From assembly GCA_964344415.1 (NCBI GenBank), contig CAYFMS010000002.1:256593-320592 (forward strand): a DNA stretch of 64,000 bases, written 5' to 3'. The translations under genes and the position numbers were made by a program. Source of the stretch: an uncultured Gammaproteobacteria bacterium (GTDB lineage: Bacteria > Patescibacteriota > Patescibacteriia > UBA9934). Below are positions 1,093-51,947 of the stretch, one piece after another. The stretch's first letter is position 1; each line of letters starts with the position of its first letter. A model generated the notes under the pieces. The model did not search any database. It had not been told where the DNA came from and saw only the letters and a program-made list of their open reading frames with translations.

Positions 1093-2537
1093 AGCTTGGG
1101 CGCATTCTCGTGATGCCTTGTTATAGATTGGAATGCATGCGCAGCCCGAAGGACAACGTCATCACCATCCGCCGGCCCCATAATTTGCAACCCAATTGGT
1201 AGTCCTGAATCCGTCAGACCGCATGGGATGGAAATCGCTGGAATTCCAGCTATATTCGCTGTTGTCGTAAAGATATCAGCCAAATACATTTCTAGTGGAT
1301 CTTCTGATTTCTCTCCCAACTTCCAAGCCGGACTTGGTGTCGTTGGCGTTACGATGACATCAACATTCTCAAATGCTTCATTCATTTCCTTCTGAATGAC
1401 AGTGCGAACCGCCTGCGCCTTTTTATAGTACGCATCATAATAGCCAGCCGACAAAATATATGTCCCCAAAATAATTCTTCGCTTCACTTCCGTTCCAAGG
1501 CCTGTACCGCGCGCTTGCTTATAACTTTCAAGAAGAGGCCCCGCTGCACGATCGCCGTATCGCATGCCATCGAATCGAGCCAAATTCGAGCTCACCTCCG
1601 CTGGCATCGTGATGTAATAGGTTGGAAGTGCATATTCAGTAAGCGGCAGACTGATTTCTACAATAGTCGCACCTGCTTTTTCGAGTTCATTTATTGCCGT
1701 CTTGGTCCGCAATCGAACATCATCATCAATACCATCAATAAAGTACTCTTTCGGGATTCCAATACGCAGCCCTTTCACATCTTCATTCAAAAGCTCAGCA
1801 ATCGGAAGGTCCTTTACTTCCCTTGATGTCGCATCATTATCATCCTGACCATCAATTACTTCATGAATAAGGGCAATATCCTCTGCAGTATTTGCAAATG
1901 CGCCAATTTGGTCGAGGCTTGAAGCCATCGCAATGAGTCCATATCGAGAAACGCGACCATATGTTGGTTTGAAACCTGAAACACCACAAACAGCAGCCGG
2001 CTGACGAATTGATCCACCCGTATCCGAACCAAGCGCTACTGGAACAAGTCCCGCGGCAACCGCAGCGGCGCTTCCACCACTTGAACCTCCGGGAATGCGG
2101 TCAAGATCCCAAGGATTATGCGTTTTTTGGAATGCAGAACTTTCGGTACTGCTTCCCATTGCGAATTCGTCCATGTTCGTCCGACCGATAATCACGGCAC
2201 CAGCATCAATTAACTTTTGAACAGCAGTAGCCGTATAAGCTGCCTTATGACTCTTGAGCATATTCGAAGAAGCCGAACTCATGTGGGCCGCATAAAGCAA
2301 ATTGTCTTTAATTGCCACAGGAACACCAGCGAGTCGCGGGAGTGACTCACCGCTCGCTTTCATTTCATCGATTTTCTTTGCGGCTTCCAGTGCTTCATCT
2401 TCAAATACCTCCAGAAATGCACCAATTTTTTCATCGTGCAGCTTTATTTGATCCAAATAATACTTCGTAACTTCGGCCGAAGAAATATCTCCATTTGAAA
2501 TTGCATCTCGAATTTCTCTTGCTGTCTTATATTCCAT
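1089..2537 (-). CDS. gatA: Glutamyl-tRNA(Gln) amidotransferase subunit A
   Basis: 482 aa. Amidase signature GGSSGGSAAAVAAG and the motif AGVPVAIKDN. It overlaps lgt by 4 nt and lies directly downstream of gatC. Confidence 0.9.
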   Translation of the reverse strand: MEYKTAREIRDAISNGDISSAEVTKYYLDQIKLHDEKIGAFLEVFEDEALEAAKKIDEMKASGESLPRLAGVPVAIKDNLLYAAHMSSASSNMLKSHKAAYTATAVQKLIDAGAVIIGRTNMDEFAMGSSTESSAFQKTHNPWDLDRIPGGSSGGSAAAVAAGLVPVALGSDTGGSIRQPAAVCGVSGFKPTYGRVSRYGLIAMASSLDQIGAFANTAEDIALIHEVIDGQDDNDATSREVKDLPIAELLNEDVKGLRIGIPKEYFIDGIDDDVRLRTKTAINELEKAGATIVEISLPLTEYALPTYYITMPAEVSSNLARFDGMRYGDRAAGPLLESYKQARGTGLGTEVKRRIILGTYILSAGYYDAYYKKAQAVRTVIQKEMNEAFENVDVIVTPTTPSPAWKLGEKSEDPLEMYLADIFTTTANIAGIPAISIPCGLTDSGLPIGLQIMGPADGDDVVLRAAHAFQSITRHHENAPKL

Positions 2538-5425: not shown

Positions 5426-6244
5426 CTAGAAGAAGGAGAGGTACCAGCCTAATATAACCTCCCCAAACAACATCACAACAATTGTAGAAATGGCGAGAAA
5501 TGTCCCAAATGGCATATGATCATGCAAACTTCGATGCTTTGCAAGAATAATATATATACCAATAATTGCACCTAAAATATAAGCAAAGAGAACAGAAATC
5601 ATGCCAAGAATAGGACCCAAGAGAAAACCGATGAGTAATCCCATGCGAATATCGCCTCCCCCAACCCAATGTCCATCGGATGCAAGAAATTGAATAGCAA
5701 AGAAAGCCCCTAGAATCAGCCCACCAAGCAGCATAACCGATGCATCTATGCCAAGCGCAATATTGAAAATGATAGTAAGAATAATTGCTGGAATGGTAAA
5801 TCGGTCTAAAATAACCTGCTTTTTGAAGTCAAAGACAAAAATGATTGTCAAGAAAATAACCATCACAGCATCTCGAACAAAAAGTGCCAGCCACTCCCCA
5901 TCCTCAACCCCGATCGGCAGTCCGTATCCAAATGCCGCACGCGCGAAAAAAGCAGCAAATAACACAGCCATCGCGAGTTCAATTGCTGGGTATTGCCATT
6001 CAATTGCCGTACTACAATGCCTACACCGCCCTTTTAATTTAAAAAAACTAAAAATGGGGATGCTATCCGTCCAGTGGATCGGGGTCAGACATGTTCTGCA
6101 TGACGATTTCTTTTTGAGCGAAAAAATCTCATCTTCTAAACGAAAAACCGTCACATTTACAATGCCACCGATCACAGCACCCAAGATCGATATTAAAATT
6201 AAATAAAGCCAAAACATATTACAAATCAAGGCAAGCTCCGGCAC
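5426..6244 (-). CDS. pilD: Type IV prepilin leader peptidase / N-methyltransferase (A24 family)
   Basis: 272 aa polytopic membrane protein. The tetracysteine zinc motif CRTC...CRHC lies in the first cytoplasmic loop and the conserved Asp-containing TM regions are present. An in-frame Met 9 codons downstream would remove the overlap with the upstream pilin-like gene. Confidence 0.85.
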   Translation of the reverse strand: MPELALICNMFWLYLILISILGAVIGGIVNVTVFRLEDEIFSLKKKSSCRTCLTPIHWTDSIPIFSFFKLKGRCRHCSTAIEWQYPAIELAMAVLFAAFFARAAFGYGLPIGVEDGEWLALFVRDAVMVIFLTIIFVFDFKKQVILDRFTIPAIILTIIFNIALGIDASVMLLGGLILGAFFAIQFLASDGHWVGGGDIRMGLLIGFLLGPILGMISVLFAYILGAIIGIYIILAKHRSLHDHMPFGTFLAISTIVVMLFGEVILGWYLSFF

Positions 6245-6731: not shown

Positions 6732-7901
6732 TCATGATTCTTTTTTCTTCTGTTTCATGCCGAGCCCGACCGCAACGGCAAAACGCGGACCGATGTCTTC
6801 AAGAGCCGGCTTCAAACCAGATGGGACAACGACCCTCGCCCATGGATTGCCAAGATAAACATTTTTATCGACATCTTTCGATATTGCCGAGACCAAATAC
6901 GGTAACTGAGCGCTTCCACCGGTTAAAATTATTTTCTCAATCGATTCTTTTCCAGCATTTTGCTGATCGTATAGAGATAGCGAATATCTAATTTCATGAA
7001 GAATTGGGTCAATCACATCTTTTAAAACGGCTGGCATTTCCCCTTGCGTGCCTCCAAGCGCCAAATCGAGCTTATACTGCTCAGCTTCCTCAAGTGAAAT
7101 ATTCATTGCCTTTGATAGACGCGATGTAATTTCACCACCACCTGCACGAATACTGCGATGCAAAAATGGAATTCCTTCATGCGTTACGGCAATATTCGTC
7201 CGCTCATGCCCAATGTCGACAATCATGATATGTGATTTGTCGTTCCCAATGAGTGAACGAATGAGGGCAAATGCTTCTGATTCAAGCGACGCCAATTCAA
7301 GCCCAGCCGCCTTAAATGTATCGACATATTTTTTGACCAATGTTTTTGGTGTGCCAAGAACAAGAACTCGAATATGCTTACGGGCGTCATCATCAGCAAG
7401 TGGAATATACGCATCATCCTTCCCTTTTTTCACCTTCTCTCCTTTTTTATCTTTCTTTTTCTCGGACTTTTTGAATAATCCCTCTTTTGGCAAAAGATGT
7501 CGATCAATAATCGTTGAGTCGAGTACCATTTCATTCATTGGAAGCGGAAGCAATTTCGCAACACGCCCTTCAATCATATGCTTCAATTGATCCTCGGGAC
7601 TTTTTGGCTGAGGAATCGTAATAATGGCATGAAAAATTTCATGGCTCGGCAGCGAAACATTCACAGCATTCACCTTAGCACCGCTACGTTTATGCAGCTC
7701 CTTCAAAACTCGACCAGCCAGGGCGGGATCATCAAGAAGAGACCCATCCATTGTAGCCTTGCGCCTTGAATAGCCATATGTCGTCAAATGCAAGCGAGAA
7801 TCTTTTTTCTGAAGCTCCGCAAGCTTTATCCCACCGGCGCCAATATCTACGCCAAGCAGCCCATCAATATGTTCCTTCTTTCCAAATAAACCCATGCGCA
7901 C
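6732..7901 (-). CDS. pilM: Type IV pilus assembly protein PilM (actin-like ATPase fold)
   Basis: 389 aa. The N-terminus (GLFGKKEHIDGLLGVDIGAGGIKLAEL) matches PilM/FtsA-like proteins. An internal Lys/Glu-rich insert is present. Confidence 0.7.
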   Translation of the reverse strand: MRMGLFGKKEHIDGLLGVDIGAGGIKLAELQKKDSRLHLTTYGYSRRKATMDGSLLDDPALAGRVLKELHKRSGAKVNAVNVSLPSHEIFHAIITIPQPKSPEDQLKHMIEGRVAKLLPLPMNEMVLDSTIIDRHLLPKEGLFKKSEKKKDKKGEKVKKGKDDAYIPLADDDARKHIRVLVLGTPKTLVKKYVDTFKAAGLELASLESEAFALIRSLIGNDKSHIMIVDIGHERTNIAVTHEGIPFLHRSIRAGGGEITSRLSKAMNISLEEAEQYKLDLALGGTQGEMPAVLKDVIDPILHEIRYSLSLYDQQNAGKESIEKIILTGGSAQLPYLVSAISKDVDKNVYLGNPWARVVVPSGLKPALEDIGPRFAVAVGLGMKQKKKES

Positions 7902-12796: not shown

Positions 12797-13870
12797 TTAT
12801 TTAACTGAATCGATGATGGCAGATCCAATAAGTTCATCGTCAATATAGAAAGCGATGAACTGCCCTGGTGCAATCGCTCTCTGATTTTCCGCAAATTCCG
12901 CAGAAATCGATTCGTCATTTAGCCTAAATGTACAATCCTGCAATGGCTGACGATATCGAATACGGGCTTTCACATTCTTCCCCTCGTACTTTTTCAGTAT
13001 TCCACCGATGGTCTCGGAAATATCAGACGCTCGAAGCGATGAAGAAAATAATGCAGGATCCTCATCACCAACTGCTACAACAATTTCATTTTTATATGGG
13101 CGGCGCTCAACGATAAAATACGGTGTACCTCCACCAATACCAAGTCCCGACCTCTGCCCAATCGTATAGTATGCATGCCCTTTATGCTGACCGATGACCT
13201 CGCCAGATGTTGTAATAATATTCCCGGGATTTTCTGGAATCTTTTCTTTGAGGAAATCAGACATTTGCACTTTCCCAATAAAACAAATCCCCTGGCTATC
13301 CTTTTTATCCGCTACATGCAAATCATGTTTTTCGGCGATTGATCGCACCTCTGACTTTTCCAGCTCACCAATTGGAAAGAGTGCCCGTGAAATTTGAGAT
13401 TGATTCAACTGACACAAAAAATAGCTTTGATCTTTATTTGCATCAATACCTGCAAGTAAATGCGACCCCTTATCATCACGTTTTACACGTGCATAATGCC
13501 CTGTCGCCACAAAATCACATCCGAGCTCATCAGCTTTTTCAAGCAAATATCCAAATTTCATGTATTTATTGCAAAGTACATCGGGATTCGGTGTTCTACC
13601 CGCTTTATATTCACGAATCATGTATTCATAAACATCAGCGCGATACTTGTCCTCGAAGTCGAATGTATGAAATTCTATACCGAGTTTCGCCGCTATGCGC
13701 ATAGCGTCACGTCGCTCTTTGCGCCATCCGCATTCCTCACCATCATTTCGGTCTGACCAGTTTTTCATGAACGCACCAATGACCTCGTAACCTTGTTCCA
13801 AAAGCAAAATAGCCGACACAGAAGAGTCGACACCTCCGGACATTCCAAGAAGTATTTTTTGCTTTTTCAT
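12797..13870 (-). CDS. mnmA: tRNA-specific 2-thiouridylase MnmA
   Basis: 357 aa. PP-loop SGGVDSSV and catalytic Cys residues in the MnmA arrangement (GHYAR...CFIG). Confidence 0.9.
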   Translation of the reverse strand: MKKQKILLGMSGGVDSSVSAILLLEQGYEVIGAFMKNWSDRNDGEECGWRKERRDAMRIAAKLGIEFHTFDFEDKYRADVYEYMIREYKAGRTPNPDVLCNKYMKFGYLLEKADELGCDFVATGHYARVKRDDKGSHLLAGIDANKDQSYFLCQLNQSQISRALFPIGELEKSEVRSIAEKHDLHVADKKDSQGICFIGKVQMSDFLKEKIPENPGNIITTSGEVIGQHKGHAYYTIGQRSGLGIGGGTPYFIVERRPYKNEIVVAVGDEDPALFSSSLRASDISETIGGILKKYEGKNVKARIRYRQPLQDCTFRLNDESISAEFAENQRAIAPGQFIAFYIDDELIGSAIIDSVK

Positions 13871-15254: not shown

Positions 15255-15360
15255 ACGTATTATTACTTCTTACGCATATATTATATGGGCCATTCGCTTA
15301 ATATGGCAAGTGTATATACTAATAAATATGGACCTGCATCTTTGATACAGGTCCGTAAGG

Positions 15361-15597
15361 TCATTCGGCGATAATTGTCAGGTCACCGAAGGGCGTACTC
15401 TGACAAACTGCTTCGTACGTAACCGCACAGCCGTTCTCATCGTCGAGGCAACGGAAGCTGAAGTAGCCTCCAGCCGCTTCGCACCACTCCCGTTCTCTGG
15501 CCTCGATCTCATCACACCGCTCACATGGACATCCGTCCATGGGTACGGTGACCGTACCCGTGAGCAGCAGGGTGATTGCCATCTGTTGCAACGTCAT
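15361..15597 (-). CDS. Small secreted Cys-rich protein encoded in a GC-rich island
   Basis: Start set at MTLQQMAITLLLTG, which is preceded by AAGGAGG. About 78 aa. Hydrophobic N-terminus, then 8 Cys (DGCPCERC...WCE...RCLDDENGC...AVC). The local GC content is conspicuously higher than in flanking genes. Confidence 0.5.
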   Translation of the reverse strand: MTLQQMAITLLLTGTVTVPMDGCPCERCDEIEAREREWCEAAGGYFSFRCLDDENGCAVTYEAVCQSTPFGDLTIIAE

Positions 15598-15731
15598 GCA
15601 CACCTCCTTGTTTATGTGCGCAAAACATTTACCAAATATTTCACGATCTGTCAAGAATTCAGACTTTCACCGCTCGGGAGGATCTCTGTCCAAAATATGA
15701 AAAACAGCCACTAAAAGGTGACTGTTTTTCA

Positions 15732-15752
15732 TGGTTCCCGGACAGGGATTCG
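15732..15752 (-). repeat. 21-nt copy of the tRNA-Gln 3' end (CGAATCCCTGTCCGGGAACCA on the minus strand). A tRNA-like terminus without the rest of the tRNA.
   Basis: An identical string occurs in the full tRNA at 15946..15966. The T-stem 5' half is absent (GAGGGCGAATCCCTG gives only a 5-nt loop). A bidirectional terminator hairpin (aaaaacagccactaaaaggtgactgttttt) abuts it. Confidence 0.6.
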
Positions 15753-15945
15753 CCCTCACCTCTCGGCTCTGCAGAGCCTCGGGATTCCCCGGCGGAGCCG
15801 GGTCAGGCTTCGCCTGAGGGTCCGGGCCTCGCCATGTTGTCTGCTGACAACATATGGCTCCGGCCGTTCGAATCGTCGCAAACCAAACTGTTGGTTTGCT
15901 CAACTGGTCACCATCAAAAAACCGCACTTGCGTGCGATTCTTTGA

Positions 15946-16019
15946 TGGTTCCCGGACAGGGATTCGAACCCCGATTTCTTGGACCAAAACCAAGCGTCCT
16001 GCCATTAGACGATCCGGGA
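15946..16019 (-). tRNA. tRNA-Gln (anticodon UUG)
   Basis: The minus-strand sequence TCCCGGATCGTCTAATGGCAGGACGCTTGGTTTTGGTCCAAGAAATCGGGGTTCGAATCCCTGTCCGGGAACCA folds as a cloverleaf. It has a 7-bp acceptor stem (U1-A72 as in bacterial tRNA-Gln), anticodon stem CTTGG/CCAAG with loop TTTTGGT, T-loop TTCGAAT and an encoded CCA. A terminator hairpin (CGCACgcaaGTGCG plus T6) follows. Confidence 0.8.
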
Positions 16020-16185
16020 GTGGAACACAATTGGATCGGTAAATTGTGCGGGGAGTGTACAAAAAATATGACTGTTAGTCAATGAGAAGTAAGGTGAGGA
16101 AGGTTAGTCAGGTTGGAGGAGGAGATAAAAGAGATTGAGTAGATTTACCAGCGTATAGGTTTTAGCTGGTAGCTTGTAGGTACAG

Positions 16186-16396
16186 AAAGATCCTTCGACA
16201 AGCTCAGGATTTCAAATGCGATCGTGCAGGATGCTGGATGCACAAACGAGATAAAGGAGATTGGAGAGATTCTGGTCGCGAAGTGAGCTTGATGCTATTG
16301 CTTTGACATGCGAGCACCAGAGTAAGACGTACTGAAAGGTACGTTGTCGAGGAGCGGAGCATGGAAATGCAAGAGCGCAAGCTCACAAGCGACGCT
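16186..16396. repeat. Dispersed intergenic repeat, family 2, ending at the dnaX stop codon
   Basis: See the copy at 5214..5424. Both share the 27-nt gatccttcgacaagctcaggatttcaa tract and the ctcacaagcgac tract adjacent to the stop codon. Confidence 0.6.
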
Positions 16397-17984
16397 AATC
16401 GACGATTTTTCCTCCAAATGCGCTCGCAATACTTTTTGCCGAAGCATCCGCATCATTTTCAATTAATATTGGCTTTACTTTAATATCAGATCGCATAATC
16501 TCATTAATCCCCTCAGCCAGCATATCCAAATTCTTCATCTGTGACATCGTGTCGAAATGAAATGAATGCTCAAAACCGACCATCACGATGCCATCCACAA
16601 TCGACTGAGGCTTCGCACTATGCAAAACAAGAGGCAAAGAAATGCTTCTCTTCCCTACCGCTTCGACACATCGCCCCCACTTTGACTGTAAATCAGCAAT
16701 ATCAATGGGTAAAACTTCTGAATCAGATTTCTCATCTTCCGTTTCAGCCTTCTCTTCGGAAACAGATTCATTCGAGTCCTTGACCTCATCCACACTCTCC
16801 TCTTCCATCACTTCAGGCTTGCGATCCGAATCCACTTCTTTATTCACAGTCTCTGGCGCTGAATATTCTTCTGTTTTCACCGATGCAGTCTCATGAGCTT
16901 GCGTCGATTCACACAGCCCCAGAAAAGCTAATTCAAGAGCTAATTGAGGAATGGAATCATGCCGAGGCTTCATCTTCGCATCGAGAAGTGCATCGAGAAG
17001 TGCATGCAATCGGTCGGAGCCAGCTTGAGCAATCTCATTAAGCCCCTCGGCCGTTTCACTGTCGAGCAAATCATTCTTCGGACCACCGAGAGCAAGAAAG
17101 AGGGCATCACGTGTTAAATCGATAAGGAGATTATGCAAATGTTTTACGGCAGCCCCCTGCTGAACATATTGTTCAAGCTCAGAAATAACCAGCTTCGTGT
17201 TACATGAAATCCCAGATTTCAGAATTTGCATAGCCGCATTCAAATCCGTCATCGGCAGAACTAAATCAGCGATATAAGACGTGATTTTTTTCTCCCCGAG
17301 CGCAAGTAATTGTCCTAGAAGACTCTCTGCATCTCGCAAGCACCCTTCCGAAACGCGAATGATCGTATTCAAAACATCGCCATCAGCCTCAACTTTTTCC
17401 TGTTCGAGTATGTATTTCAATCGAGATCGGATCTGTTCCGCATCAAGACGCTTAAAATCGAAACGCATGCAACGAGAAATAATCGTTTCAGGAATTTTAT
17501 GCAGTTCCGTTGTCGCTAAAATGAAAATAACATGAGCAGGTGGCTCTTCAATCGTCTTGAGAAGCGCATTGAATGCCGATGTTGAAAGCATATGAACCTC
17601 GTCAATGATATACACTTTGAACTTTCCTGTTGTCGGCATGAAACGAACAGCATCGATAATATTCTCACGCACATTATCAACGCCTGTATGACTCGCCGCA
17701 TCTATTTCAATGATGTCGATAGCGCGCCCAACATTTGCTTCCGTACAATTTTGACAATCATTACAAGGTTCGGAATCATCTGTCTTTCTATTTAAGCAAT
17801 TTAATGACTTCCCTATAAGCCTCGCAATTGTCGTTTTTCCGATCCCACGCGAACCTGAAAAAAGATAAGCATGGCCTATTTCACCTGTTTTTATTTGATT
17901 CTGAACGGTTCGCGAAACATGGTTCTGCCCTGTAATGCTTGCGAATGTCATCGGTCGATACTTTCTGTAAATTGCCTGTGCCAT
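16395..17984 (-). CDS. dnaX: DNA polymerase III subunit gamma/tau
   Basis: 529 aa. AAA+ clamp-loader motifs (GHAYLFSGSRGIGKTTIARL, Zn-module CNDCQNC, DEVHML, SRC motif ISRCMRF) and an acidic C-terminal extension. Confidence 0.9.
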   Translation of the reverse strand: MAQAIYRKYRPMTFASITGQNHVSRTVQNQIKTGEIGHAYLFSGSRGIGKTTIARLIGKSLNCLNRKTDDSEPCNDCQNCTEANVGRAIDIIEIDAASHTGVDNVRENIIDAVRFMPTTGKFKVYIIDEVHMLSTSAFNALLKTIEEPPAHVIFILATTELHKIPETIISRCMRFDFKRLDAEQIRSRLKYILEQEKVEADGDVLNTIIRVSEGCLRDAESLLGQLLALGEKKITSYIADLVLPMTDLNAAMQILKSGISCNTKLVISELEQYVQQGAAVKHLHNLLIDLTRDALFLALGGPKNDLLDSETAEGLNEIAQAGSDRLHALLDALLDAKMKPRHDSIPQLALELAFLGLCESTQAHETASVKTEEYSAPETVNKEVDSDRKPEVMEEESVDEVKDSNESVSEEKAETEDEKSDSEVLPIDIADLQSKWGRCVEAVGKRSISLPLVLHSAKPQSIVDGIVMVGFEHSFHFDTMSQMKNLDMLAEGINEIMRSDIKVKPILIENDADASAKSIASAFGGKIVD

Positions 17985-18728: not shown

Positions 18729-21212
18729 TCATCTCCCTATCGGTGCGGGTGGTGGGACGGTCTTTCTACGCTGGCCTATGCCAGCACGCTCTGCTATTTC
18801 AGATTCAACATTAGCTTTTGGCCGACCATAGCCCAAACGTGAAATATCTTTAAGTGTATGCATTAATTCTGCATTTGGATCTTCTGGAGCATTCGTTTTG
18901 AGCGTAAATGGCTTTAATTGTGCATTATTCGCAATAATTTTTGCATTCCAAGTATATTTATCGGTATTCATCAAATCATATGATGTAAAGATTGGGTCAA
19001 ATACCTTTCCGAGCACCTCAACATCTTCAGGACCAACTCGGGAAACAAGCATTGTTCCCACATTTCCAAGAACAGCGTCACGAATCTCCGTCTTCCCGTC
19101 CTGCACGAGCTGCCCCATATATTGATGCGCGAGTACCAAATTAAGGCGATATTTCCTCGCCTCGGACAGAATGGTCGCAATAGAAGGAGTAATAAAGTTC
19201 TGGAACTCATCAATGTAAAGGTAAAAATCACGGCGCTGATCTTCTGGCAAATCTGTTCGCGTAAATGCTGCCATTTGCAATTTTGCAACCAGAATCAATC
19301 CAAGAAGATTCGCATTGACCTCTCCCGTCGCGCCCTTTGAAAGATTCACGAGTAATATTTTGCCTTCGTCCATGATTTCACGAAAATCAAAAGCTGACTT
19401 TGATTGACCAATAATATTACGCATCATTTCATTCTCGACAAATCTACCGACCTTGGACACCAAATACCCCATCATTTCAGATTTGTGATAATCACTCGTT
19501 TTCGCCATTTCATCTTCCCAGAATGACCTCACAACTGGATCGGTTACTTTCGCCACCCATTCCTTCTGGAATTTCTCATCTGAAATCATGCGTGGAATTT
19601 CTGCAAGCGTACCCGGATTATCGAGATCCGCCATCAATGTGAGCATAAAATTACGCATATTGTGCTCAAACATTGGACCAATCATTTCCGGCGGGAAAAG
19701 CATATAGAAAATAGAAATCATTTCCTGCACGGCAAAATCGCGCATATTCTCATTCGGCGCTTCGAGCATATTAAGCCCCATTGGCCTTTCCATATCAGAT
19801 GGATTGAAATACACGACATCATCAATGCGTTCGCGCGGAATAGAACCCATAATGGCATCGACAAGATCTCCATGTGGATCAATCACTGCAACACCTTTGC
19901 CAGCCTTGATGTCCTGAAGGGCCATATATCGCAAAAAATACGATTTTCCAGATCCTGTTTTTCCAACAAGATACATATGCCGACGGCGATCTGCATCATC
20001 GAGGAATACTTCTGTTCTATCACCTCGATAGAGATTATAACCAAGATGAAGCCCATCCTGAGGAACTCCAGCTGGCACTGGTGCCGTCCGCGCTTGCAGC
20101 CAACGAATTCCCGGTGTTTCTGTTGTTGGGAGAGGTAAATGCCAAAGCGAGGCCATTTCTTCCGTATTCAAAATGACTTTCTGTGATTCATCGAATTGAC
20201 GATAAATATAGTCCCGCAAAAGCCGTTTTTTGCTTGAAGGAACTTTTACTTCAAATGCATTCCCAATTTCATAAATATTAAATTGACTGAATGCTTGCAG
20301 GACACGATTCATGTCTGCCTCAGCCGACGGAGCTGATTTGCTTGAAGCAATAATGCGAATATTCACATCCATGCCCGCCTTACTGACCTTTTCTGAAATA
20401 CCTTCCGCCATTTGCTCATCTGACTTGGTCGGTTGGCGACGCTCCATCTGTTCACGCTTTTGGTCTCGAGTTTCCTTTGACTGCAATGCAGAACTCCAAG
20501 ATTCACCTCCAGAACGAATCGCCTGATCATAATTCAAACCTTTACGTAAATTATCGGCAATACTTCTTGCGCGTGATCGCCAATCTTTCTTTGCACTGCG
20601 TACAATAAATTGCACGGCAAGCCCTTCATCATCCGACACTTTTGAAAGAGCATTCGTTAAACCACTGAGCGGATCACCTTCAATTGTCTTAAATGTGCGA
20701 ATAGGAAGTGTATGATGCCGTTTTAATTTCAAATACCCACCGACAATAACCCCCTGTGCATGGAAAATATTGTGATCCTGAACCAATTCAATATGAGCAT
20801 CAGGATACTGTGCATGTAATTGCTGCTCAACAAATTCCTGCATGTAAATAGGCGTCGTCACATAGAATGTGATTAATTTTTCATGAGCTACGATCTCAAG
20901 AGCGATTTGATCTGTTCGACCATAAAACCACGCCGAAAGACCTCGCTGCGCCTTCATTCCGCCAATGGCAGCATAAAATGTTTCTGCAATAGCTATTTTT
21001 TCATCAACTTGCTGCTGGCTGCTCGTTCCTCTATCTTCATCACTTTTATATTTCGGAACGGTGATCATGAATGTTTTCAGATAACTCGCACCCCCTTGAA
21101 CAAATTGTCGTCGACGTACAAATGAACGCAATAGCATCAGTACAAAAAATGCCAGGATAATCGCCCCCAGTACAATTCCGATCACAACAAATAACCGTAT
21201 AATTTCCTCCAT
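18729..21212 (-). CDS. Membrane-anchored P-loop ATPase of the FtsK/HerA/VirB4/VirD4 superfamily (type IV secretion / conjugative-transfer-like). In this copy the ATPase is fused to an N-terminal membrane plus soluble domain.
   Basis: 827 aa with an N-terminal TM helix. Residues 40-330 are homologous to the separate 527-aa protein at 55910..57493 (FYVTTPIYMQEFVEQQLHAQYPDAHI aligns with FYIRTQAKTRDLVEAALYAQYPEAQV). The C-terminal half carries Walker A YLVGKTGSGKSY, DPHGD, Walker B DFYLYIDEFQNF and SEARKYRLNLVLAHQYMGQL (Arg-finger / sensor region). This half is about 55-60% identical to the 687-aa protein at 53842..55905. Confidence 0.65.
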   Translation of the reverse strand: MEEIIRLFVVIGIVLGAIILAFFVLMLLRSFVRRRQFVQGGASYLKTFMITVPKYKSDEDRGTSSQQQVDEKIAIAETFYAAIGGMKAQRGLSAWFYGRTDQIALEIVAHEKLITFYVTTPIYMQEFVEQQLHAQYPDAHIELVQDHNIFHAQGVIVGGYLKLKRHHTLPIRTFKTIEGDPLSGLTNALSKVSDDEGLAVQFIVRSAKKDWRSRARSIADNLRKGLNYDQAIRSGGESWSSALQSKETRDQKREQMERRQPTKSDEQMAEGISEKVSKAGMDVNIRIIASSKSAPSAEADMNRVLQAFSQFNIYEIGNAFEVKVPSSKKRLLRDYIYRQFDESQKVILNTEEMASLWHLPLPTTETPGIRWLQARTAPVPAGVPQDGLHLGYNLYRGDRTEVFLDDADRRRHMYLVGKTGSGKSYFLRYMALQDIKAGKGVAVIDPHGDLVDAIMGSIPRERIDDVVYFNPSDMERPMGLNMLEAPNENMRDFAVQEMISIFYMLFPPEMIGPMFEHNMRNFMLTLMADLDNPGTLAEIPRMISDEKFQKEWVAKVTDPVVRSFWEDEMAKTSDYHKSEMMGYLVSKVGRFVENEMMRNIIGQSKSAFDFREIMDEGKILLVNLSKGATGEVNANLLGLILVAKLQMAAFTRTDLPEDQRRDFYLYIDEFQNFITPSIATILSEARKYRLNLVLAHQYMGQLVQDGKTEIRDAVLGNVGTMLVSRVGPEDVEVLGKVFDPIFTSYDLMNTDKYTWNAKIIANNAQLKPFTLKTNAPEDPNAELMHTLKDISRLGYGRPKANVESEIAERAGIGQRRKTVPPPAPIGR

Positions 21213-24703: not shown

Positions 24704-27700
24704 TTACTCCTGTAAAGATTCTGTGTTAATAGTTTCTTCTTCCGCTGGCGCTGGTTCAGGTGAAGATTCAACAATTGGCTCTTCGATAACCACTTCTTCA
24801 ATAATCTCCTCTACCTGAGGTGCTTCTTCTACCTCTTCAACCACCGGTTCGATAGTAGATGTTTCGACAACATCCACTACCTCTTCCGTTGTAACTTCAT
24901 CCTCTTCTTCAATCGTCTCCTCTTCGATTACTTCTTCGAGAACCGGTCCAAAGACCTCTTCTGTCACTTCTTCCGTGTTTTCAATTGATTCTTCTTGCGC
25001 TGGCTCTTCTTCTACGATTTCAGAAGAAGTTTCAGTCTCAGTAGAATCCTCTGTTACCTCTTGCTCAGTCGATTCTTCAACTTGCTCTTCAACAACCGGC
25101 ACATCTTCTACATCTATCGTTTCTGGCTGCTGAGGCACGATGATTTCAATTGTCGATTCCTGAGCGTTATCTGATCCATCCGCGATGACAATTTCAATTT
25201 CTTCTGTCGTACCATCACTCACGAAAATCTTTCCTTCCTCAACCGCGAATGCATGCCATGAGAAGTCAAGGTCATGTCGCACTTCCTGATTAATCTTGAT
25301 TCGGAATCCAGCCGTTGTTTCATCAAGTACCGTGTATTTGAAGCTTGCAAATAGATTCGCTTCGCCACGCGGAGACGCTGTTACAATTGGCTGATATTCA
25401 TATTCTTCTTCGAATTCAACTTGTACATATCGGTCGCCTTCCAAGATTCTAGCAATTCCGGCCGTATCAGCCCCGAATGTTGCATGCTTCTGCACATGAA
25501 TTCCTTCCGTGAATTCCTGCAATGAAGCAATCTCTACTGATTCTGAACCATCAACCGTAACACCAGCAGCCTCTTGAAGACGTTCGAGTACAGCGACACG
25601 TGCTTCGAGATCCGTGAATTCTTGCGCAAGATCATCAACGCTGATTACGAGATCCGCTACTGTCAATTCAAGTGCATCTATACGTCCATCCATCAGGCTC
25701 ATTTCTTCTTGACGTTGTAATTCTGAAGCCGTGACCGCATCATTGATCGCTGCATCAATACCGAGCTGATTAAGCGTCGCTTGCGTATCTGCCGTGAGAA
25801 CGGCGAAGACGTCGTAATTTTCAAGTGCCACATCAATTGAATTATCGATTCCAAGTCCGTCAATTCGCTGATCAATGGTGTCATTAATTGTCGTCGTAAG
25901 GTTGAGTCCAGCGATTTGTCCATCTACGATAGCCGTAATGTCTTCATCGAAGTTCAATGTTTCAAGCGCGCCGCTAATCATAAGCTCAACCTCATCCTCG
26001 ATTTCCATTGCTGCTACATGCTCCGCAACCTCTGCTTCAACTGATTCAACCGTCAAGCTCTTATTACGACGAGAAATGAGTACATTTACCATTCCCGTTT
26101 CTCCAGAGAGATCTTCGAGTGCAACACCGACGGTTGGGTCTCCCGGACTCGCTTTCATTGCATATCCTGGAATTGACGCTGATGTCAGTGAATCACCAAC
26201 ACGAATTTCACCATTTTCATTCGTCACATGTGCATCAACCTGTCCGAGCATACCTACGATTGCATAATGTGCATTGTCGACTGTTTCATCTGTTGTATTA
26301 CCGATAATGGATGGATTGTCAGAGATAATACCCATCACATTACCATCAGAAGCCCCAGAACATCGCTCTACCGCATTATCTCGTGTGATGTCCACACAAA
26401 CGATTTCACCGGCAGCAAGGTCAGACTGAACAGAGTAGAAACGCTCGGCATAGTCGGCTCCACCAGAGTTGTAAGCGACATCTGAGAATGTTTCACCATC
26501 CTGAGCAACACGCCATACAGAATCAGATGTTCCATCAATATCGACATTGAATGCTGCGAAGTTGAATGTGTCAGTTGTTTCTGAATTTGTTTCAATTTGC
26601 ATGATTCCCATTCGTCGACCAGTACCGTCACCCGTCATAGCAAGCGCTCCAGATTCTGCCATGATATGAAGTCCCGCTCCAGCCGTTGAAAGCGTTGCTG
26701 ATGCATAATCTACACTGATAGCTTGTACCGTTGCAGAAGCGATATCAACTGCGAGTGGCCCATCGAATCCAGCCGTACCAGTTCCTAAGAAGTCAAATGT
26801 TGGATTCGTCGTCGCATTTCCGAATGTAATCGCTTCAGATGAATTTGTCGTATTGATATTGATGTAATTATCACTTCCTTGCTGCAAGTCATATGCATCG
26901 GTTGTATTGTCAGTCATTGAAGGCGCAAGTGTATCTGAGAGATATGCCATGGTTCCTGCCGCATCCTGAAGTGTAATTGTTCGAGAAGCAGAGAATCCAG
27001 ATCCGTCGAGTACCAATCCCGTATTTGCTGCAACGCTGAAGTTCATGTTTGCATTTGGGAATGTAATTGTCTTATCTGTCGTTGTCGGTTCCGTAATAGA
27101 GAAGAATGTTTCTTTCGAATCCGCACCAGCCCCTTCAAATGCCAATGCCTGCGTTGTTCCCATGATTGCACCGTACATGTAGATCTTGTCTCCAAATCCA
27201 TTTCCAAAGGTAGAATTATCATAGACCGTCAAATCATCTACCGTAATATCTGAGGCTTGTGCCGTACCGATGTCAACACCATCAATTGTTCCACCGTCAA
27301 TATCAACATCACCCGTGAAGTGAATATCTCCTGTCGTACCAGCATCTGTAAGCGTCATGAGTGTATTTGTTCCATCGGTGAACGTGAGCACCCCTCCGTT
27401 ACCTATAGAGATGATTGGACTTGTTGTATCAAAACTCAAGTCTCTATCCCATCCATCTCCGATACGAATTGCCGACTCAAGTCCGTCAGCGTCAGCAGAT
27501 GCAATGTCATCGATATCGAGTCCAATGACTTCATCCGTTGATGCTGCATGATTCGCACTTGCAATATCGAGTACTAATGCTCGGTAAATGTCAGATCCAT
27601 CACCTGCACCGGCTGTAAAGTCAATTTCCATTCCCTCTTCTGAAGCAGCAACTGCAGCCGTCTTCACAAGATTTACATCATCTGCAGAGTCTAATGTGAT

Positions 27701-30700
27701 ATTGAAGTCTCCACCGGATAGATCGAAGTCGCCATCGCTGATTAGGATATCTCCAGCCGTGAGAACAAGAGCATCTGTTCCATCAGCAGATCCATTAATT
27801 GTCACCGCTCCGCTACCAAGGAATGAGAAGCTTGGATTTGTTGTTGCATTTCCGAAGGCGATATTCTCTGATGAATTTGTCGTATTGATATTGATGTAAT
27901 TATTGCTTCCTTCCTGAAGATCATATGCATCCGCCGTATTGTCAGTTAGACCACTACCACCGCCCGTTGAAATCGCCGCAAATGATCCACCATCATTTGA
28001 GAGCTCCCATTGGTCAGTTGAAGCATTGTAACGAATCTCTCCGTCACTGTCCGATCCCTGATTTGCCAAGATTCGTATATTTGCCCCTGACCCAGCATTA
28101 TCTTCATCAAGTTCTATAACCGTTCCATGAACATCGAAGTCTCCACCAGCCGTGAAGAGTCCTGTTCCTGTTGTAATTGCTTGATTATTTGTTGTATTGA
28201 AACTGAATGCTCCAGAACTATCGAGTGATCCGTCAGAGAGCGTCGTCGTTGCACCCGCAATGAATGATCCATCGGTATAAACACTTCCTTCAATACCTGC
28301 AGTTCCCGCAACAAAGAGGTCATCTCCTCCGAGTGAGAAGTCTCCATTTGCGAGAGTTTCAGATGTTGACGTTGAACCACCAACGATGAGGTCTTCGTCG
28401 AAAAGTACATCATCCGCATCTACATGAATGGCATATGTATCTGAACCCTCAATGTACAAACCAATATCCGTAGATCCAGCCGTTTGATCTTCAATTTGAA
28501 TACCGTAATTCGTTGTTAATGTCCCAGCTGGATTAAACGCCGACTGGACCTGGAGACCGGCACCAGTCGTGATCGTTCCTGTACTTGTGTTCATTACACG
28601 TCCGGCCAAACCAGCAGCTTCTGTGATTGTTCCCCCCGTCTGATGAATAACACGACCACCACCACCAGCAGCAAGTGTAACTGTACCAGCTGTACCAACA
28701 TTACTTGTCACAAAAGCTCCAAGGAAACCACCAGCCTCATTGACCGTTCCTGTTGATTCATGAGAGAAAATTCCCGTCGCACCTGTTGAGAACGTATTAC
28801 TGTCAAATGCACCTGACTGCACAGCCGCGCCATCCAATTGGAGTGTTGAATGAGAACCATGCGTGTACGTACTTACCGTCCCAGTATCTATCGTCAATTG
28901 CGCACCAACTCCATACCCATGCACATTCGTAGCTGAAATGTCAGCACCTCGTCCCGTTGCGCTTACCGTACCCGATGTCGCCGTTGCATTATAAGTAACA
29001 TCAAGTGCTGATCCAGAATCATTATATGTAGCTCCTGCATTGTTGACCGTAATATCTTTATCGATTCGAACAGTATCCGCCGTATCTGTGCGAGTAGCCG
29101 CTGCTGTCAATGTTCGATCTGAAACGAATCGTCCAATAGCTCCAGTCGCATCAGCTGTAATTCCTGACGCCGTGTGATCCACGTTAAAGACATTTGATGT
29201 AGTAATAGCATTACTCGTCGTACCAACATCAACCCCTATGCCACTTGTCAATCCATCAAAACTCAAAGATGCACCCGAATTTGTCGTGACCGAATCACCC
29301 GTCATTGTGAACAATGTTTCATTATTCGCACTTGTAATTGCATACTGAATGTCCGTTGCAACAACATCTCCATCTGAATCAATTCTCCAGTAATCCGTTC
29401 CTGAACTATCTTCAATTTCTATAATTTTCTGGTTTTGTGTGCTGTTTGCTTGAATGAGCAACTGCACCTCATCCGTATCACCATCGACAGAGAGTTTTGC
29501 AAGAGATGCTCCTCCAATACCGACATTGTCTGTAGAGGTTGAAAGGGTGATATCTGTTCCTCCATCTGTCCAACCAGCTGCTTCAGAGATACCTCCGTCT
29601 AGAATGGTGAATTCAGCCGCAGAAATAAGCGTTCCAGAGATGTCGAAGAGATTGGTGAATCCTCCGCCTGCATCTACCGTCTTGAAGACAGTACCAACAA
29701 CATCATCTGTGTCTGAGTTGTCTGCAACGAAGAGTGCGTCTAATCCTTCTGTACTTGCCGCATTGTCGAGATACAGTCCGTATTGAGCTGTCGTTGAACT
29801 TGTTGTGTCTTCAGCTGTGAATGTATGCACAACACCATTTTCACTTGTTGCATCCGTAAGCGTTCTTGCAATAGACCATGTTTCTCCTGCTGTACCGGTA
29901 ATACTAGTTGCAGCGTCGAGTGCAAGTGCATCTGCGAATTCTGTGAAGTCGAGTGTATCTGCTGTAAGGTCAGCTCCGTCTACATTAGATAGAGAATTTC
30001 CTGTTCCATTCGCATCAAAGGCTACACCTGTAATCGCTCCTGTTGTAGAAATATCCCAGTCAGATGTGTTGATCTGCATGGTGTCTCCACCGTCTCCAAG
30101 AAGAACAGCTCCGCCTGGTGTAAGAGTGAATGCTCCTGTTGTTGTGAACGTGGTAGAAGCTCCATCGAATGAGACGTCTGTATCTGCGACCGCAAGATCA
30201 CCGTTAAGATCAATGGTACTTGAGGCAAGAAGTGTTCCATCAAGCGTAACAGCTCCATCTACTTCAAGTTCACCCTCAATGTATGCATCTTCTCCGTCCA
30301 TGGATGCTGTTCCCGGTGTTCCATTTCCTACACGTAGATTTCCTGTTGAAATGCGGAAGCTGTCTGCTCCGGCTGCAAGTGAGAAGTCGAAGAGATCATC
30401 CGCATTCGCATCAGTGTCTGTGATAGATCCGTCTGCATAGGTCGTTGTAGACCCGGCGATGAATGATCCATCCGTATAGATGCTACCTTCTACACCAGCC
30501 GTTCCCGCAACGAAAAGGTCATCTCCGCCGAGTGAGAAGCTTCCATTTGAGAGGGTTTCTGTACTAGAAGTTGAACCTCCAACAATAAGGTCTTCGTCAA
30601 ATCGAACGTCATCGGCGTCAGCAAAGATGGCATATGTGTCACCACCTTGAACGCGAATACCATAGTTATTCGTATTTCCAGTTACATCTTCGATATCAAG

Positions 30701-51499: not shown

Positions 51500-51697
51500 T
51501 GGAACTCCCTGAATGAAAGTGCGTGTCATTACGACGTGTGAATATAGCATAAAATAGACCTTTTGTCAATGCAAAAAGGCCAAAATCGCTGTAAAATAGG
51601 CACATTCTTTAGATATTCACATCGGATATAAATACACCGTTTTATATCGGATATGCTTCTAAAACAAAAAGAACCCATCGTTCTAATGAGCTCTTTT

Positions 51698-51716
51698 TGG
51701 TGACCCCACGGGGAAT
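51698..51716 (-). repeat. 19-nt copy of the tRNA-Glu 3' end (ATTCCCCGTGGGGTCACCA on the minus strand), plus shared 3'-flanking A-run
   Basis: Identical to 51873..51891 of the full tRNA. No T-stem 5' half is present upstream. It sits about 150 nt 3' of the intact tRNA, beyond the tRNA terminator and a GC-rich structured spacer. Confidence 0.6.
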
Positions 51717-51872
51717 ATCCTTCGCTACGCTCGGATATGTCTGTTCCTCGCTCGGGAATGTCAAAGTAAACTTTGCCACTCCTCTCGCTTCGTCGCGGCA
51801 TCGAACCCACAGGGTCTGCATTCACCCAGAAGAGTACCAACAAAAAACCAGAGGCAAGCTCTGATTTTTTGT

Positions 51873-51947
51873 TGGTGACCCCACGGGGAATCGAACCCCG
51901 ATTTCCAGGATGAGAACCTGGCGTCCTAACCGTTAGACGATGGGGCC
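51873..51947 (-). tRNA. tRNA-Glu (anticodon CUC)
   Basis: The minus strand reads GGCCCCATCGTCTAACGGTTAGGACGCCAGGTTCTCATCCTGGAAATCGGGGTTCGATTCCCCGTGGGGTCACCA. It has a 7-bp acceptor stem, anticodon stem CCAGG/CCTGG with loop TTCTCAT, T-loop TTCGATT and an encoded CCA. A terminator hairpin (CAGAGcttgcCTCTG plus T6) follows. Confidence 0.75.

What the first reader, a model, noticed from the sequence alone, without database searches (positions are those of the whole stretch)
15732..16019. tRNA-Gln, terminator, about 120 nt of GC-rich multi-hairpin spacer, then a 21-nt copy of the tRNA 3' end
The last 21 nt of tRNA-Gln (CGAATCCCTGTCCGGGAACCA) recur about 195 bp downstream. A run of perfect short hairpins lies between them (GCAAACCAAcagTTTGGTTTGC, TCAGGcgaagCCTGA, CCCGGctccgCCGGG, GGCTCtgcaGAGCC). 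The second copy is followed immediately by another terminator-like hairpin. A 3'-end duplication is the classic attL/attR scar of integration into a tRNA gene. However, only about 195 bp lie between the copies, which is too short for an element. Alternatives are a decayed remnant, a tiny non-autonomous element, or a structured tRNA-like RNA. The same architecture recurs at tRNA-Glu.
Basis: seen in the sequence. Interest (0 to 1): 0.6.

Follow-up and report, generated by a model that had tools for sequence, protein, structure and literature searches.

The report
Structured tRNA-derived module behind tRNA-Gln
Just after a glutamine tRNA gene of an uncultured Uhrbacteria (CPR) bacterium lies a hairpin-rich non-coding module of about 175 bases that ends in an exact copy of the tRNA's last 21 bases; it is conserved with compensatory base changes in distant relatives, so it looks like a remodelled partial tRNA duplicate kept by selection rather than the scar of an inserted virus or island.

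Summary
tRNA-Gln(UUG) lies at 15946-16019(-). Its last 21 nt recur exactly at 15732-15752, each copy is followed by a terminator hairpin, and the 193 nt between them fold far better than shuffles (z -7.3). tRNA-Glu has the same layout.

The classic attL/attR reading is only partly right. The repeat does start in the T-loop and end at CCA, and some relatives have "empty" sites. But no integrase or other mobile-element gene was found in 64 kb, and no phage copy turned up.

The spacer is homologous in at least four deeply diverged Uhrbacteria lineages (DnaX 48-50% identical). It has invariant unpaired blocks and 17 base pairs with changes on both sides (0/500 shuffles).

The segments that pair with the 3' copy correspond to the tRNA's own acceptor-5' and T-stem-5' strands. 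One hairpin sits where the anticodon arm would be, and two sit inside the T-loop.

Best reading (about 0.5): a tRNA-Gln-derived structured RNA that arose by tandem partial duplication including the terminator, is made by read-through, and ends like a tRNA. It matches no Rfam family and its function is unknown. Rivals are a miniature att-bounded element and a DNA-level structured site. Transcription was not tested.

The parts
16054..16082 (-). Sigma-70-like promoter candidate (TTGACT-17-TACACT) upstream of tRNA-Gln. It is the only promoter-like site on this strand in 15300-16500.
15946..16019 (-). tRNA-Gln(UUG) with encoded CCA. Its last 21 nt (15946-15966) form repeat copy A1.
15910..15949 (-). 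T1: terminator-type hairpin (A-tract, 18-nt arms, T-tract) that starts inside the ACCA of the tRNA. It has two G.U pairs on the tRNA-sense strand.
   Evidence: I1
15878..15899 (-). H1 hairpin (GCAAACCAA-CAG-TTTGGTTTGC). It lies between the two segments that pair with the 3' copy, in the position of the D/anticodon arms of a tRNA.
   Evidence: (helix 2: 4 pairs changed on both sides)
15858..15876 (-). Conserved block ACGATTCGAACGGCCGGAG (sense strand). GATTCG can pair with CGAATC of the 3' copy and is equivalent to T-stem-5'/T-loop. GAACGGCCGGAG is invariant in 3 lineages.
   Evidence: helix 3
15825..15865 (-). H2 domain: an invariant GGCC/GGCC helix, a GGAG/CGA internal loop, and a long hairpin at 15832-15857 with loop CAGCAG.
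   Evidence: helices 4, 5: 6 pairs changed on both sides
15788..15818 (-). 31-nt insertion of two GC-rich hairpins (TCAGG-CGAAG-CCTGA and CCCGG-CTCCG-CCGGG). It is absent from the homologues in L171 and L176.
   Evidence: the same 13-mer occurs in inverted orientation in L001
15765..15778 (-). H3 hairpin GGCTC-TGCA-GAGCC. The palindromic CTGCAG apex is invariant in 4 lineages and the stem covaries.
   Evidence: helix 6: 7 pairs changed on both sides
15732..15752 (-). A2: exact copy of tRNA-Gln positions 56-76 (CGAATCCCTGTCCGGGAACCA). It forms the 3' strand of the closing helix plus a single-stranded GGGAACCA tail.
15690..15732 (-). T2: second terminator hairpin plus T-tract. It is alignable with the terminator of L176.
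   Evidence: (I2)
51873..51947 (-). tRNA-Glu(CUC), followed by T1 at 51836-51876.
51697..51835 (-). Analogous module at tRNA-Glu. It has a spacer with a segment GACCCTGTGGG (51806-51816) that can pair with the copy through 3 G.U pairs, a T-loop-like GGGTTCGATG, and the 20-nt 3'-end copy at 51697-51716. T2 at 51665-51699 follows.

Best explanation
The interval is a tRNA-Gln-derived structured non-coding module, not an inserted element. SHOWN: it keeps the tRNA's last 21 nt (the 3' part of the T-loop, the T-stem 3' strand, the acceptor 3' strand and ACCA) and a terminator. In relatives the whole 61-64 nt 'tRNA 3' end plus terminator' unit is repeated. Upstream segments (GGACA ... GGGATTCGAA) are complementary to that 3' strand. 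They correspond to the tRNA's own acceptor-5' and T-stem-5'/T-loop strands. Hairpin H1 occupies the place of the D/anticodon arms. Hairpins H2 and H3 (85-120 nt) sit inside what was the T-loop. Stems covary while junction and loop sequences stay fixed across deeply diverged Uhrbacteria. INFERRED: the module arose by tandem partial duplication of tRNA-Gln with its terminator. The second copy lost the top of its 5' acceptor strand and its D arm, and expanded its T-loop. It is transcribed from the tRNA promoter by read-through of T1 and ends at T2. It folds into a closed multi-hairpin domain clamped by a helix resembling a tRNA 'top half', with a free ...ACCA tail. Its 3' end is therefore matured and protected by the tRNA 3'-processing machinery. 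The conserved loops (CUGCAG, CAGCAG, GGAG/CGA) would be the functional surface, for protein binding or RNA pairing. What the RNA does is unknown. The near-identity of the flanking repeats within each genome is attributed to gene conversion. The 'empty' relatives are attributed to deletion between those repeats.
For: The spacer is homologous in the window, L171, L176 and partially in L183, although DnaX is only 47-50% identical. RNAalifold finds 16 of 47 pairs with compensatory changes in 3 sequences. On 4 sequences, 94% of cells are paired and 17 pairs changed on both sides, against 6.3 +/- 1.9 in shuffles (0/500) and at most 2 in the slid controls. The blocks GAACGGCCGGAG and CGAGGCC and the CTGCAG loop are invariant. 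The model built from the element aligns real tRNA-Gln genes with H1 over the anticodon arm and the 87-nt H2-H3 domain as an insertion in the T-loop. L081, L171, L176 and a Eubacteriaceae tRNA-Ser analogue (L021) all fold with a closing helix made of the 5' segment and the 3' copy, leaving a free 3' tail (z -4.5, -4.9, -2.6, -6.5). The 61-64-nt direct repeats include the terminator. The window's T2 is alignable with the terminator of L176. By my reading, G.U pairs lie on the tRNA-sense strand (about 11, against 1 A.C). The only promoter-like site is upstream of the tRNA. No mobile-element genes were found. No Rfam family matches. The locus is identical in two samples.
Against: There is no expression data, and T1 looks like a competent terminator, so read-through may be low. 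The long-range closing helix is invariant, so covariation cannot test it, and it is weakest in the window itself (helices 1 and 3). Only 3.4 sequences are available. The tRNA-Glu module is neither detectably homologous nor significantly structured. Distribution among relatives is patchy: absent in L168 and L180, degenerate in L001 and L173, and with a GIY-YIG ORF inside the interval in L178. Perfect 61-64-nt direct repeats 120 nt apart should delete easily. Structure conservation would also fit a single-stranded-DNA recombination site.
Confidence: 0.5

Rival explanations
1. It is a miniature, non-autonomous integrative element (att-only, or CIME-like). It would have inserted by site-specific recombination in the T-loop of tRNA-Gln, supplying a replacement tRNA 3' end plus its own terminator. 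It would be mobilised in trans by an integrase encoded elsewhere.
For: The identity block starts in the T-loop (C56 for Gln, A58 for Glu) and ends at or just past CCA, as in T-loop-class att sites (Williams 2002, cited via PMC9897764). Relatives with tRNA-Gln and a single terminator exist. The module's distribution on the DnaX tree is patchy. In L178/L179 the interval can hold a gene, a GIY-YIG ORF. In the window, T1 differs from T2, as expected if the element brought its own terminator. The element is GC-rich relative to the genome. Several assemblies break at this locus.
Against: No integrase or recombinase was found in 64 kb. There is one copy per tRNA, and the model finds no other copy in the window or in 158 other loci. 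No phage or viral-contig relative or attP-like partial copy was found. Stems have diverged with compensation while the junctions are fixed, which indicates long residence under selection and not recent mobility. In L171, L176 and L081 the 'element' terminator equals the 'host' terminator although terminators differ between lineages. A horizontally moving element would not show that. The internal segments equivalent to the tRNA's 5' strands, and the position of H1, are not explained by an attP. The contig breaks can equally come from a second tRNA-Gln gene that shares the 3' half.
Confidence: 0.2
2. It is a DNA-level structured site. The hairpins and the inverted/direct tRNA-end segments would fold in single-stranded DNA. 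They would serve as a recombination, nicking or replication-related site, comparable to an integron attC or the CTX-phage attP(+).
For: Structure is conserved while stem sequence varies and short motifs stay fixed, as known for attC sites (my own knowledge). The A1-T1-A' segment forms a palindrome with arms of up to 40 nt in L081 (I2). VirD4/TrwB-like ATPase genes lie 2-3 kb upstream of both tRNA loci.
Against: G.U pairs are concentrated on the tRNA-sense strand, including in the terminators. The orientation is always that of the tRNA, and terminators follow both copies. These features point to RNA. No recombinase or relaxase partner was identified. No second site was found.
Confidence: 0.1
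3. It is a neutral relic: either the decayed remnant of a once larger integrated element, or a dying tandem tRNA pseudogene with no present function.
For: Partial tRNA copies left by integration are common in prokaryotes (PMC9897764). In my sample of 82 tRNA genes, three other phyla show short-range partial 3' copies (L013, L021, L098). ARAGORN and Rfam do not call the second copy a tRNA.
Against: Neutral DNA would be unalignable at 48-50% DnaX identity, and the flanking intergenic DNA is indeed unalignable. The module, by contrast, keeps invariant blocks and 17 compensated pairs. The 21-nt copy is perfect in every lineage.
Confidence: 0.07

Closest known systems
attL/attR duplication of a tRNA 3' end by tyrosine-integrase elements (T-loop sublocation class; Williams 2002; Islander-type islands)
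   Same: It is a direct repeat of the tRNA 3' end. The identity block begins in the T-loop and runs to or through CCA. The intact tRNA lies on one side and a partial copy on the other. Empty sites occur in some relatives.
   Different: The interval is 193 nt rather than 9-120 kb and holds no integrase or any other gene. The interior is conserved with compensatory changes over deep divergence. In relatives the repeat also covers the host-specific terminator.
tmRNA tRNA-like domain and other tRNA 'top-half' mimics (acceptor/T minihelix, mascRNA-type 3' tRNA-like structures)
   Same: An RNA whose 5' and 3' ends form a tRNA-type closing helix with a free ...ACCA tail, while a large foreign structured domain replaces the interior. 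In the L021 analogue the first 6 bp are the true acceptor stem.
   Different: The insertion sits in the T-loop, not in place of the anticodon arm. In the Gln modules the top 4 bp of the acceptor stem are missing, leaving an 8-nt tail. No T-loop remains. tmRNA, tRNA and Rfam models do not match.
sRNAs derived from tRNA 3' external transcribed spacers (for example 3'ETS-leuZ of E. coli)
   Same: It would be a functional RNA taken from the 3' trailer of a tRNA transcript, sharing the tRNA promoter and ending at a terminator.
   Different: Here the module lies beyond a first terminator and carries its own copy of the tRNA 3' end and a second terminator. It is much more structured. No Hfq/sRNA context is known in CPR bacteria.
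CIMEs and other non-autonomous att-bounded elements; integron attC sites
   Same: These are short gene-less DNA bounded by recombination-site repeats (CIME), or sites with conserved structure, variable sequence and short fixed motifs (attC).
   Different: CIMEs are kilobases long and recognisably derived from ICE/IME ends. attC sites come in arrays next to an integrase. Neither condition is met here.

Membership tests
tRNA-integrated genetic element (attL/attR) | A direct repeat consisting of the tRNA 3' end, starting in the anticodon loop, T-loop or acceptor and reaching the 3' end | tested here: met
   The 21-nt repeat covers C56-A76 plus 1 nt. The Glu repeat is 20 nt, starting at A58.
tRNA-integrated genetic element (attL/attR) | An integrase or recombinase gene inside or next to the bounded interval | tested here: not met
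   The 193-nt interval holds only spurious ORFs that overlap the tRNA. No recombinase-type Pfam domain was found in 37 window ORFs.
tRNA-integrated genetic element (attL/attR) | Presence/absence polymorphism with precise empty sites in close relatives | tested here: inconclusive
   Empty configurations were found only in distant relatives (L168, L180; DnaX 47-48%). Two samples of the same organism are identical. No close relative was available.
tRNA-integrated genetic element (attL/attR) | A matching attP on a phage, plasmid or ICE | tested here: not met
   Five IMG/VR pattern scans and a phage blastn gave only chance hits.
MITE / REP-type repeat | Many dispersed copies per genome | tested here: not met
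   Model R1 finds one copy in the 64-kb window and none in 158 unrelated loci. The rest of the 744-kb contig could not be read.
MITE / REP-type repeat | Terminal inverted repeats with a short target-site duplication | tested here: inconclusive
   Inverted segments exist (A' and A2), but they equal the tRNA's own complementary strands. The flanking duplication is 21-64 nt, not 2-10 nt.
Known RNA family (Rfam 15, including tmRNA, tRNA-like, SRP, 6S) | A score at or above the family gathering threshold | tested here: not met
   Only the two tRNAs pass. Permissive scans of both spacers give only hairpin noise at 20 bits or less.
Conserved structured non-coding RNA (new family) | Compensatory base changes supporting helices across homologues | tested here: met
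   17 pairs changed on both sides; 0/500 shuffles reach this; slid controls give at most 2. Only 4 sequences were available.
Conserved structured non-coding RNA (new family) | Evidence of transcription with defined ends | not testable with these tools
   No RNA-seq is available. Only indirect evidence exists: terminators after both copies, sense-strand G.U pairs, and a promoter-like site only upstream of the tRNA.
tRNA gene or tRNA pseudogene (tandem duplicate) | Recognisable cloverleaf by tRNA finders | tested here: not met
   ARAGORN and RF00005 call only the upstream gene.
tRNA gene or tRNA pseudogene (tandem duplicate) | Collinear remnants of tRNA parts in the order of a tRNA | tested here: inconclusive
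   The element model aligns real tRNA-Gln genes with H1 over the anticodon arm and H2-H3 as a T-loop insertion. The scores are only 13-16 bits, mostly from the shared 3' end.

The most novel reading that the evidence does not exclude
tRNA genes of CPR bacteria, and perhaps of other phyla (the Eubacteriaceae tRNA-Ser analogue L021), carry a previously undescribed class of cis-linked 'tRNA top-half' RNAs. Each would be born from a partial tandem duplicate of its own tRNA plus terminator. Each would be clamped by the tRNA's acceptor/T strands, end in the tRNA's own ...NCCA, and carry a large structured domain in place of the T-loop. Both tRNAs in this window (Gln and Glu) have one. They could act as dedicated partners of their tRNA, for example as decoys or sensors for enzymes that handle tRNA 3' ends. 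Alternatively, they could be a new kind of tiny tRNA-riding genetic element.
Probability: 0.3. Interest if true: 0.75.

Novelty: new variant of a known kind. Interest (0 to 1): 0.6.

Why it matters
Partial tRNA copies are routinely read as footprints of integrated islands. Here the footprint brackets a short interval that selection has kept structured across deep CPR divergence. If it is expressed, it adds a new tRNA-derived RNA family in bacteria with very small genomes, where a retained 175 nt of non-coding sequence is notable. It would also give a concrete example of a tRNA duplicate evolving into a new structured RNA by expansion of the T-loop. If it is instead a tiny mobile unit, it would be an unusually small att-bounded element. 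Either way, it warns annotation pipelines against calling islands from tRNA 3' repeats alone.

Tried and rejected
1. Known RNA families. A whole-window Rfam scan and permissive scans of both spacers found nothing.

2. Phage or attP origin. Five IMG/VR scans and a phage blastn were run (83). The hits were AT-rich coding regions, chance GC-rich matches with no model score, or one phage's structural gene.

3. REP/RAYT link. L081 has an IS200/RAYT-like gene next to its module, but tblastn found none in the window or any other locus, so the association is incidental.

4. GIY-YIG link. The ORF inside the L178 interval has no homologue in the window.

5. Homology between the Gln and Glu spacers. None was detected by alignment, local alignment against shuffles, or the covariance model.

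6. A tRNA-like 3' minihelix formed with an upstream TCCCGAG. This segment is not conserved in L171 or L176, so the idea was dropped.

7. A primer-binding-site or retroelement reading of the complementary segment. The segment does not cover the CCA end, and no reverse transcriptase is present.

8. Using YgjP as a handle on the tRNA-Glu locus. The gene is not syntenic in relatives, with a best hit of 41% identity, so that search was wasted.

9. Contig breaks at the locus as evidence of heterogeneity. They are ambiguous, because a second tRNA-Gln isoacceptor sharing the 3' half would also break assemblies.

10. Complementarity of the L171 linker to its tRNA anticodon arm (I5). It is not conserved in the other lineages.

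Full report
THE OBSERVATION

ARAGORN and Rfam find two tRNA genes in the window, both on the minus strand: tRNA-Gln(UUG) at 15946-16019 and tRNA-Glu(CUC) at 51873-51947.

The last 21 nt of tRNA-Gln, CGAATCCCTGTCCGGGAACCA, recur exactly at 15732-15752. No such match, even with 3 mismatches, arose in 100 shuffles. blastn finds no further copy.

Each copy is followed at once by an A-tract/hairpin/T-tract terminator whose stem includes the ACCA (I1 at 15910-15949, I2 at 15697-15732).

It folds with z = -7.3. Its GC content is 0.62, against 0.44 for the window.

tRNA-Glu shows the same layout, with a 20-nt copy at 51697-51716, spacing 175, and two terminators. Its spacer, however, is not significantly structured.

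CONTEXT

The window comes from a 744-kb metagenomic contig (ENA ERZ930065, PRJEB17505). DnaX hits place the organism in Candidatus Uhrbacteria (Patescibacteria/CPR).

The neighbours are housekeeping genes: dnaX is upstream and mnmA is downstream. Further away lie lgt, ligA, recJ, lepA, cysS, the dnaK operon and secDF.

Pfam scans of 37 ORFs found no integrase, recombinase, transposase or reverse transcriptase. The only promoter-like site on the tRNA strand lies just upstream of tRNA-Gln.

RELATIVES

The gene order dnaX then tRNA-Gln is conserved in Uhrbacteria, which made comparison possible. The loci fall into several groups.

- L171 (DnaX 50% identical) and L176 (48%) have the same architecture, and their spacers align with the window's.
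- L183 (MnmA 75%) begins inside the module and matches its last 54 positions.
- L081 (DnaX about 42%) has the same architecture, with a spacer that is only faintly similar.
- L168 and L180/L181 have a plain tRNA-Gln with one terminator.
- L001 and L173 have degenerate hairpin clusters.
- L178/L179 have a 19-nt copy with spacing 458. The interval holds an 86-aa GIY-YIG ORF and a short module of the same type: complementary segment, hairpin, copy.

In L171, L176 and L081 the direct repeat spans the tRNA 3' end plus the entire terminator (63, 61 and 64 nt, one mismatch each). The terminators nevertheless differ between lineages. In the window T1 and T2 differ, and T2 aligns with the terminator of L176.

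CONSERVATION PATTERN

Across the homologues, unpaired blocks are invariant: GAACGGCCGGAG, CGAGGCC, the CTGCAG apex of H3, and GG before the copy. The stems change with compensation.

- RNAalifold finds 16 of 47 pairs with changes on both sides.
- On four sequences, 94% of cells pair and 17 pairs changed on both sides. Shuffles give 6.3 +/- 1.9 (0/500 reach the observed value), and the slid controls give at most 2.
- Hairpins H1, H2 and H3 are therefore supported.
- The long-range helices never vary, because the 3' copy is fixed, so they remain untested.

Flanking intergenic DNA is not alignable between these genomes. This is the signature of purifying selection on a folded nucleic acid. It fits neither a recent insertion nor a neutral scar.

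By my count, G.U pairs fall on the tRNA-sense strand in the helices, in both terminators and in the Glu pairing (about 11, against one A.C). This favours RNA of the tRNA's polarity, though weakly.

ANATOMY

The segments that pair with the 3' copy are GGACA and GGGATTCG (window: a weaker CCAGTTG and ACGATTCG). At first they looked like an inverted copy of the tRNA end. They are equally the tRNA's own acceptor-5' and T-stem-5'/T-loop strands, since those strands are complementary to the 3' strand.

The covariance model built from the module aligns genuine tRNA-Gln genes with H1 over the anticodon arm and the 87-nt H2-H3 domain as an insertion in the T-loop. The scores are low, at 13-16 bits.

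Single-sequence folds of L081, L171 and L176 all give the same picture: a closing helix made of the 5' segment and the 3' copy, an internal multi-hairpin domain, and a free 3' tail. The Eubacteriaceae tRNA-Ser analogue L021 folds the same way. In L021 the first six nucleotides are the true acceptor 5' strand.

The simplest origin is a tandem partial duplication of the tRNA together with its terminator, followed by remodelling of the second copy. This explains the direct repeat, the shared orientation, the repeated terminator, the complementary segments and the position of H1.

MECHANISM (INFERRED)

I propose the following sequence of events.

1. Transcription from the tRNA promoter reads through T1.
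2. The module folds and terminates at T2.
3. Its tRNA-type 3' end is trimmed and protected like that of a tRNA.
4. The conserved loops form the functional surface.

Gene conversion keeps the two repeat units alike. Deletion between them yields the 'empty' relatives.

Function is unknown. The nearby mnmA acts on tRNA-Gln, tRNA-Glu and tRNA-Lys, and the loops contain CAG. I note both, but I could not test either.

RIVALS

A miniature att-bounded element remains possible. In its favour:

- the T-loop start of the identity block;
- empty sites in some relatives and a patchy distribution;
- a gene inside the L178 interval;
- the difference between T1 and T2 in the window.

Against it:

- there is no recombinase, no second copy and no phage counterpart;
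- it does not explain the covariation pattern;
- it does not explain why each lineage's two terminators are alike.

A single-stranded-DNA site and a neutral relic are less likely, for the reasons given in the rival entries.

BACKGROUND RATE

Among 82 tRNA genes in 161 loci, three genes outside the Uhrbacteria have a short-range partial 3' copy that is not a neighbouring tRNA: L013, L021 and L098. The phenomenon is therefore not confined to CPR bacteria. Only L021 shares the full layout.

LIMITS

- Only 3.4 homologous sequences were available.
- There are no expression data.
- No close relatives were available.
- The rest of the source contig could not be read.
- The Glu module was not studied comparatively.

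Noticed in passing
window 16050-16390: The 375-nt dnaX-tRNA-Gln intergenic region is strongly purine-rich on the plus strand (GC skew up to +0.7). It carries repeated GAGATAAAGGAGATT-type motifs. It has no counterpart in L171, where the same spacer is 48 nt.
   Followed up: no
window 15361-15597 (-) and 51164-51499 (-): Each tRNA module is followed by a small gene for a secreted or lipoprotein-like Cys-containing protein. The second protein has a lipobox and 34-aa tandem repeats (AWCDSIYHQNVGCPKHGEIEV...), encoded by a 102-nt repeat of 2.2 copies at 99% identity (51203-51424).
   Followed up: partly
window 18729-21212 (-) and 53842-55905 (-): Two VirD4/TrwB-like (DUF87, T4SS-DNA_transf) ATPase genes each lie 2-3 kb upstream of one of the two tRNA loci. 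The one upstream of dnaX is syntenic in all Uhrbacteria relatives examined.
   Followed up: no
window 24704-40420 (-): A single ORF of 5238 aa. Giant proteins are typical of CPR genomes. It was not analysed.
   Followed up: no
L178/L179 5520-5780 (-): An 86-aa GIY-YIG nuclease-family ORF sits between tRNA-Gln and its 19-nt 3'-end copy. It is followed by a short module of complementary segment, hairpin and copy. T1 there is a complex of three nested inverted repeats.
   Followed up: partly
L081 5937-6812: An IS200/RAYT-like Y1 transposase gene (292 aa) lies immediately downstream of the second terminator. It has no homologue in the window or in the other loci.
   Followed up: yes
L163-L165 (ends), L172, L177, L182, L183 (starts): Independent assemblies of several relatives break within or beside the tRNA-Gln/module locus. 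L163-165 end exactly at ...AATCGGGGTT, the start of the repeated block. L183 starts at the position where the window has its extra 31-nt hairpin insertion. The cause could be repeats, a second tRNA-Gln gene or strain heterogeneity.
   Followed up: partly
L021 about 6830-7252 (-); L013 about 1900-2243 (-); L098 about 5550-5932 (-): Other phyla show short-range partial tRNA 3' copies. A Eubacteriaceae tRNA-Ser has the full layout of terminator, 5'-strand-like segment, hairpins and copy (fold z -6.5). A Coriobacteriaceae tRNA-Val has nested repeats. One tRNA-Glu has 104-nt tandem units, each carrying the 3' end.
   Followed up: partly
L168 4680-5140: Between dnaX and tRNA-Gln of Uhrbacteria CG_4_9_41_35 there are several copies of a repeat of about 40 nt (GTCATTCTGAGCCTGGCGTGAACCACGGCGAAGAATC), resembling a dispersed palindromic repeat family.
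   Followed up: no
window 15789-15801 and L001 11888-11900: The 13-mer CCGGCGGAGCCGG (a small GC hairpin) is shared by the window's extra insertion and the tRNA-Gln downstream region of L001, in opposite orientation relative to the tRNA. It is absent from the 159 other loci. Small GC hairpins may move or arise repeatedly within these modules.
   Followed up: partly
window 12797-13870 (-) and 1089-2537 (-): mnmA, the 2-thiouridylase acting on tRNA-Gln, tRNA-Glu and tRNA-Lys, is syntenic downstream of tRNA-Gln in all relatives. An amidase-family (GatA-like) gene is also in the window. A functional link to the modules at the Gln and Glu tRNAs is conceivable but untested.
   Followed up: no
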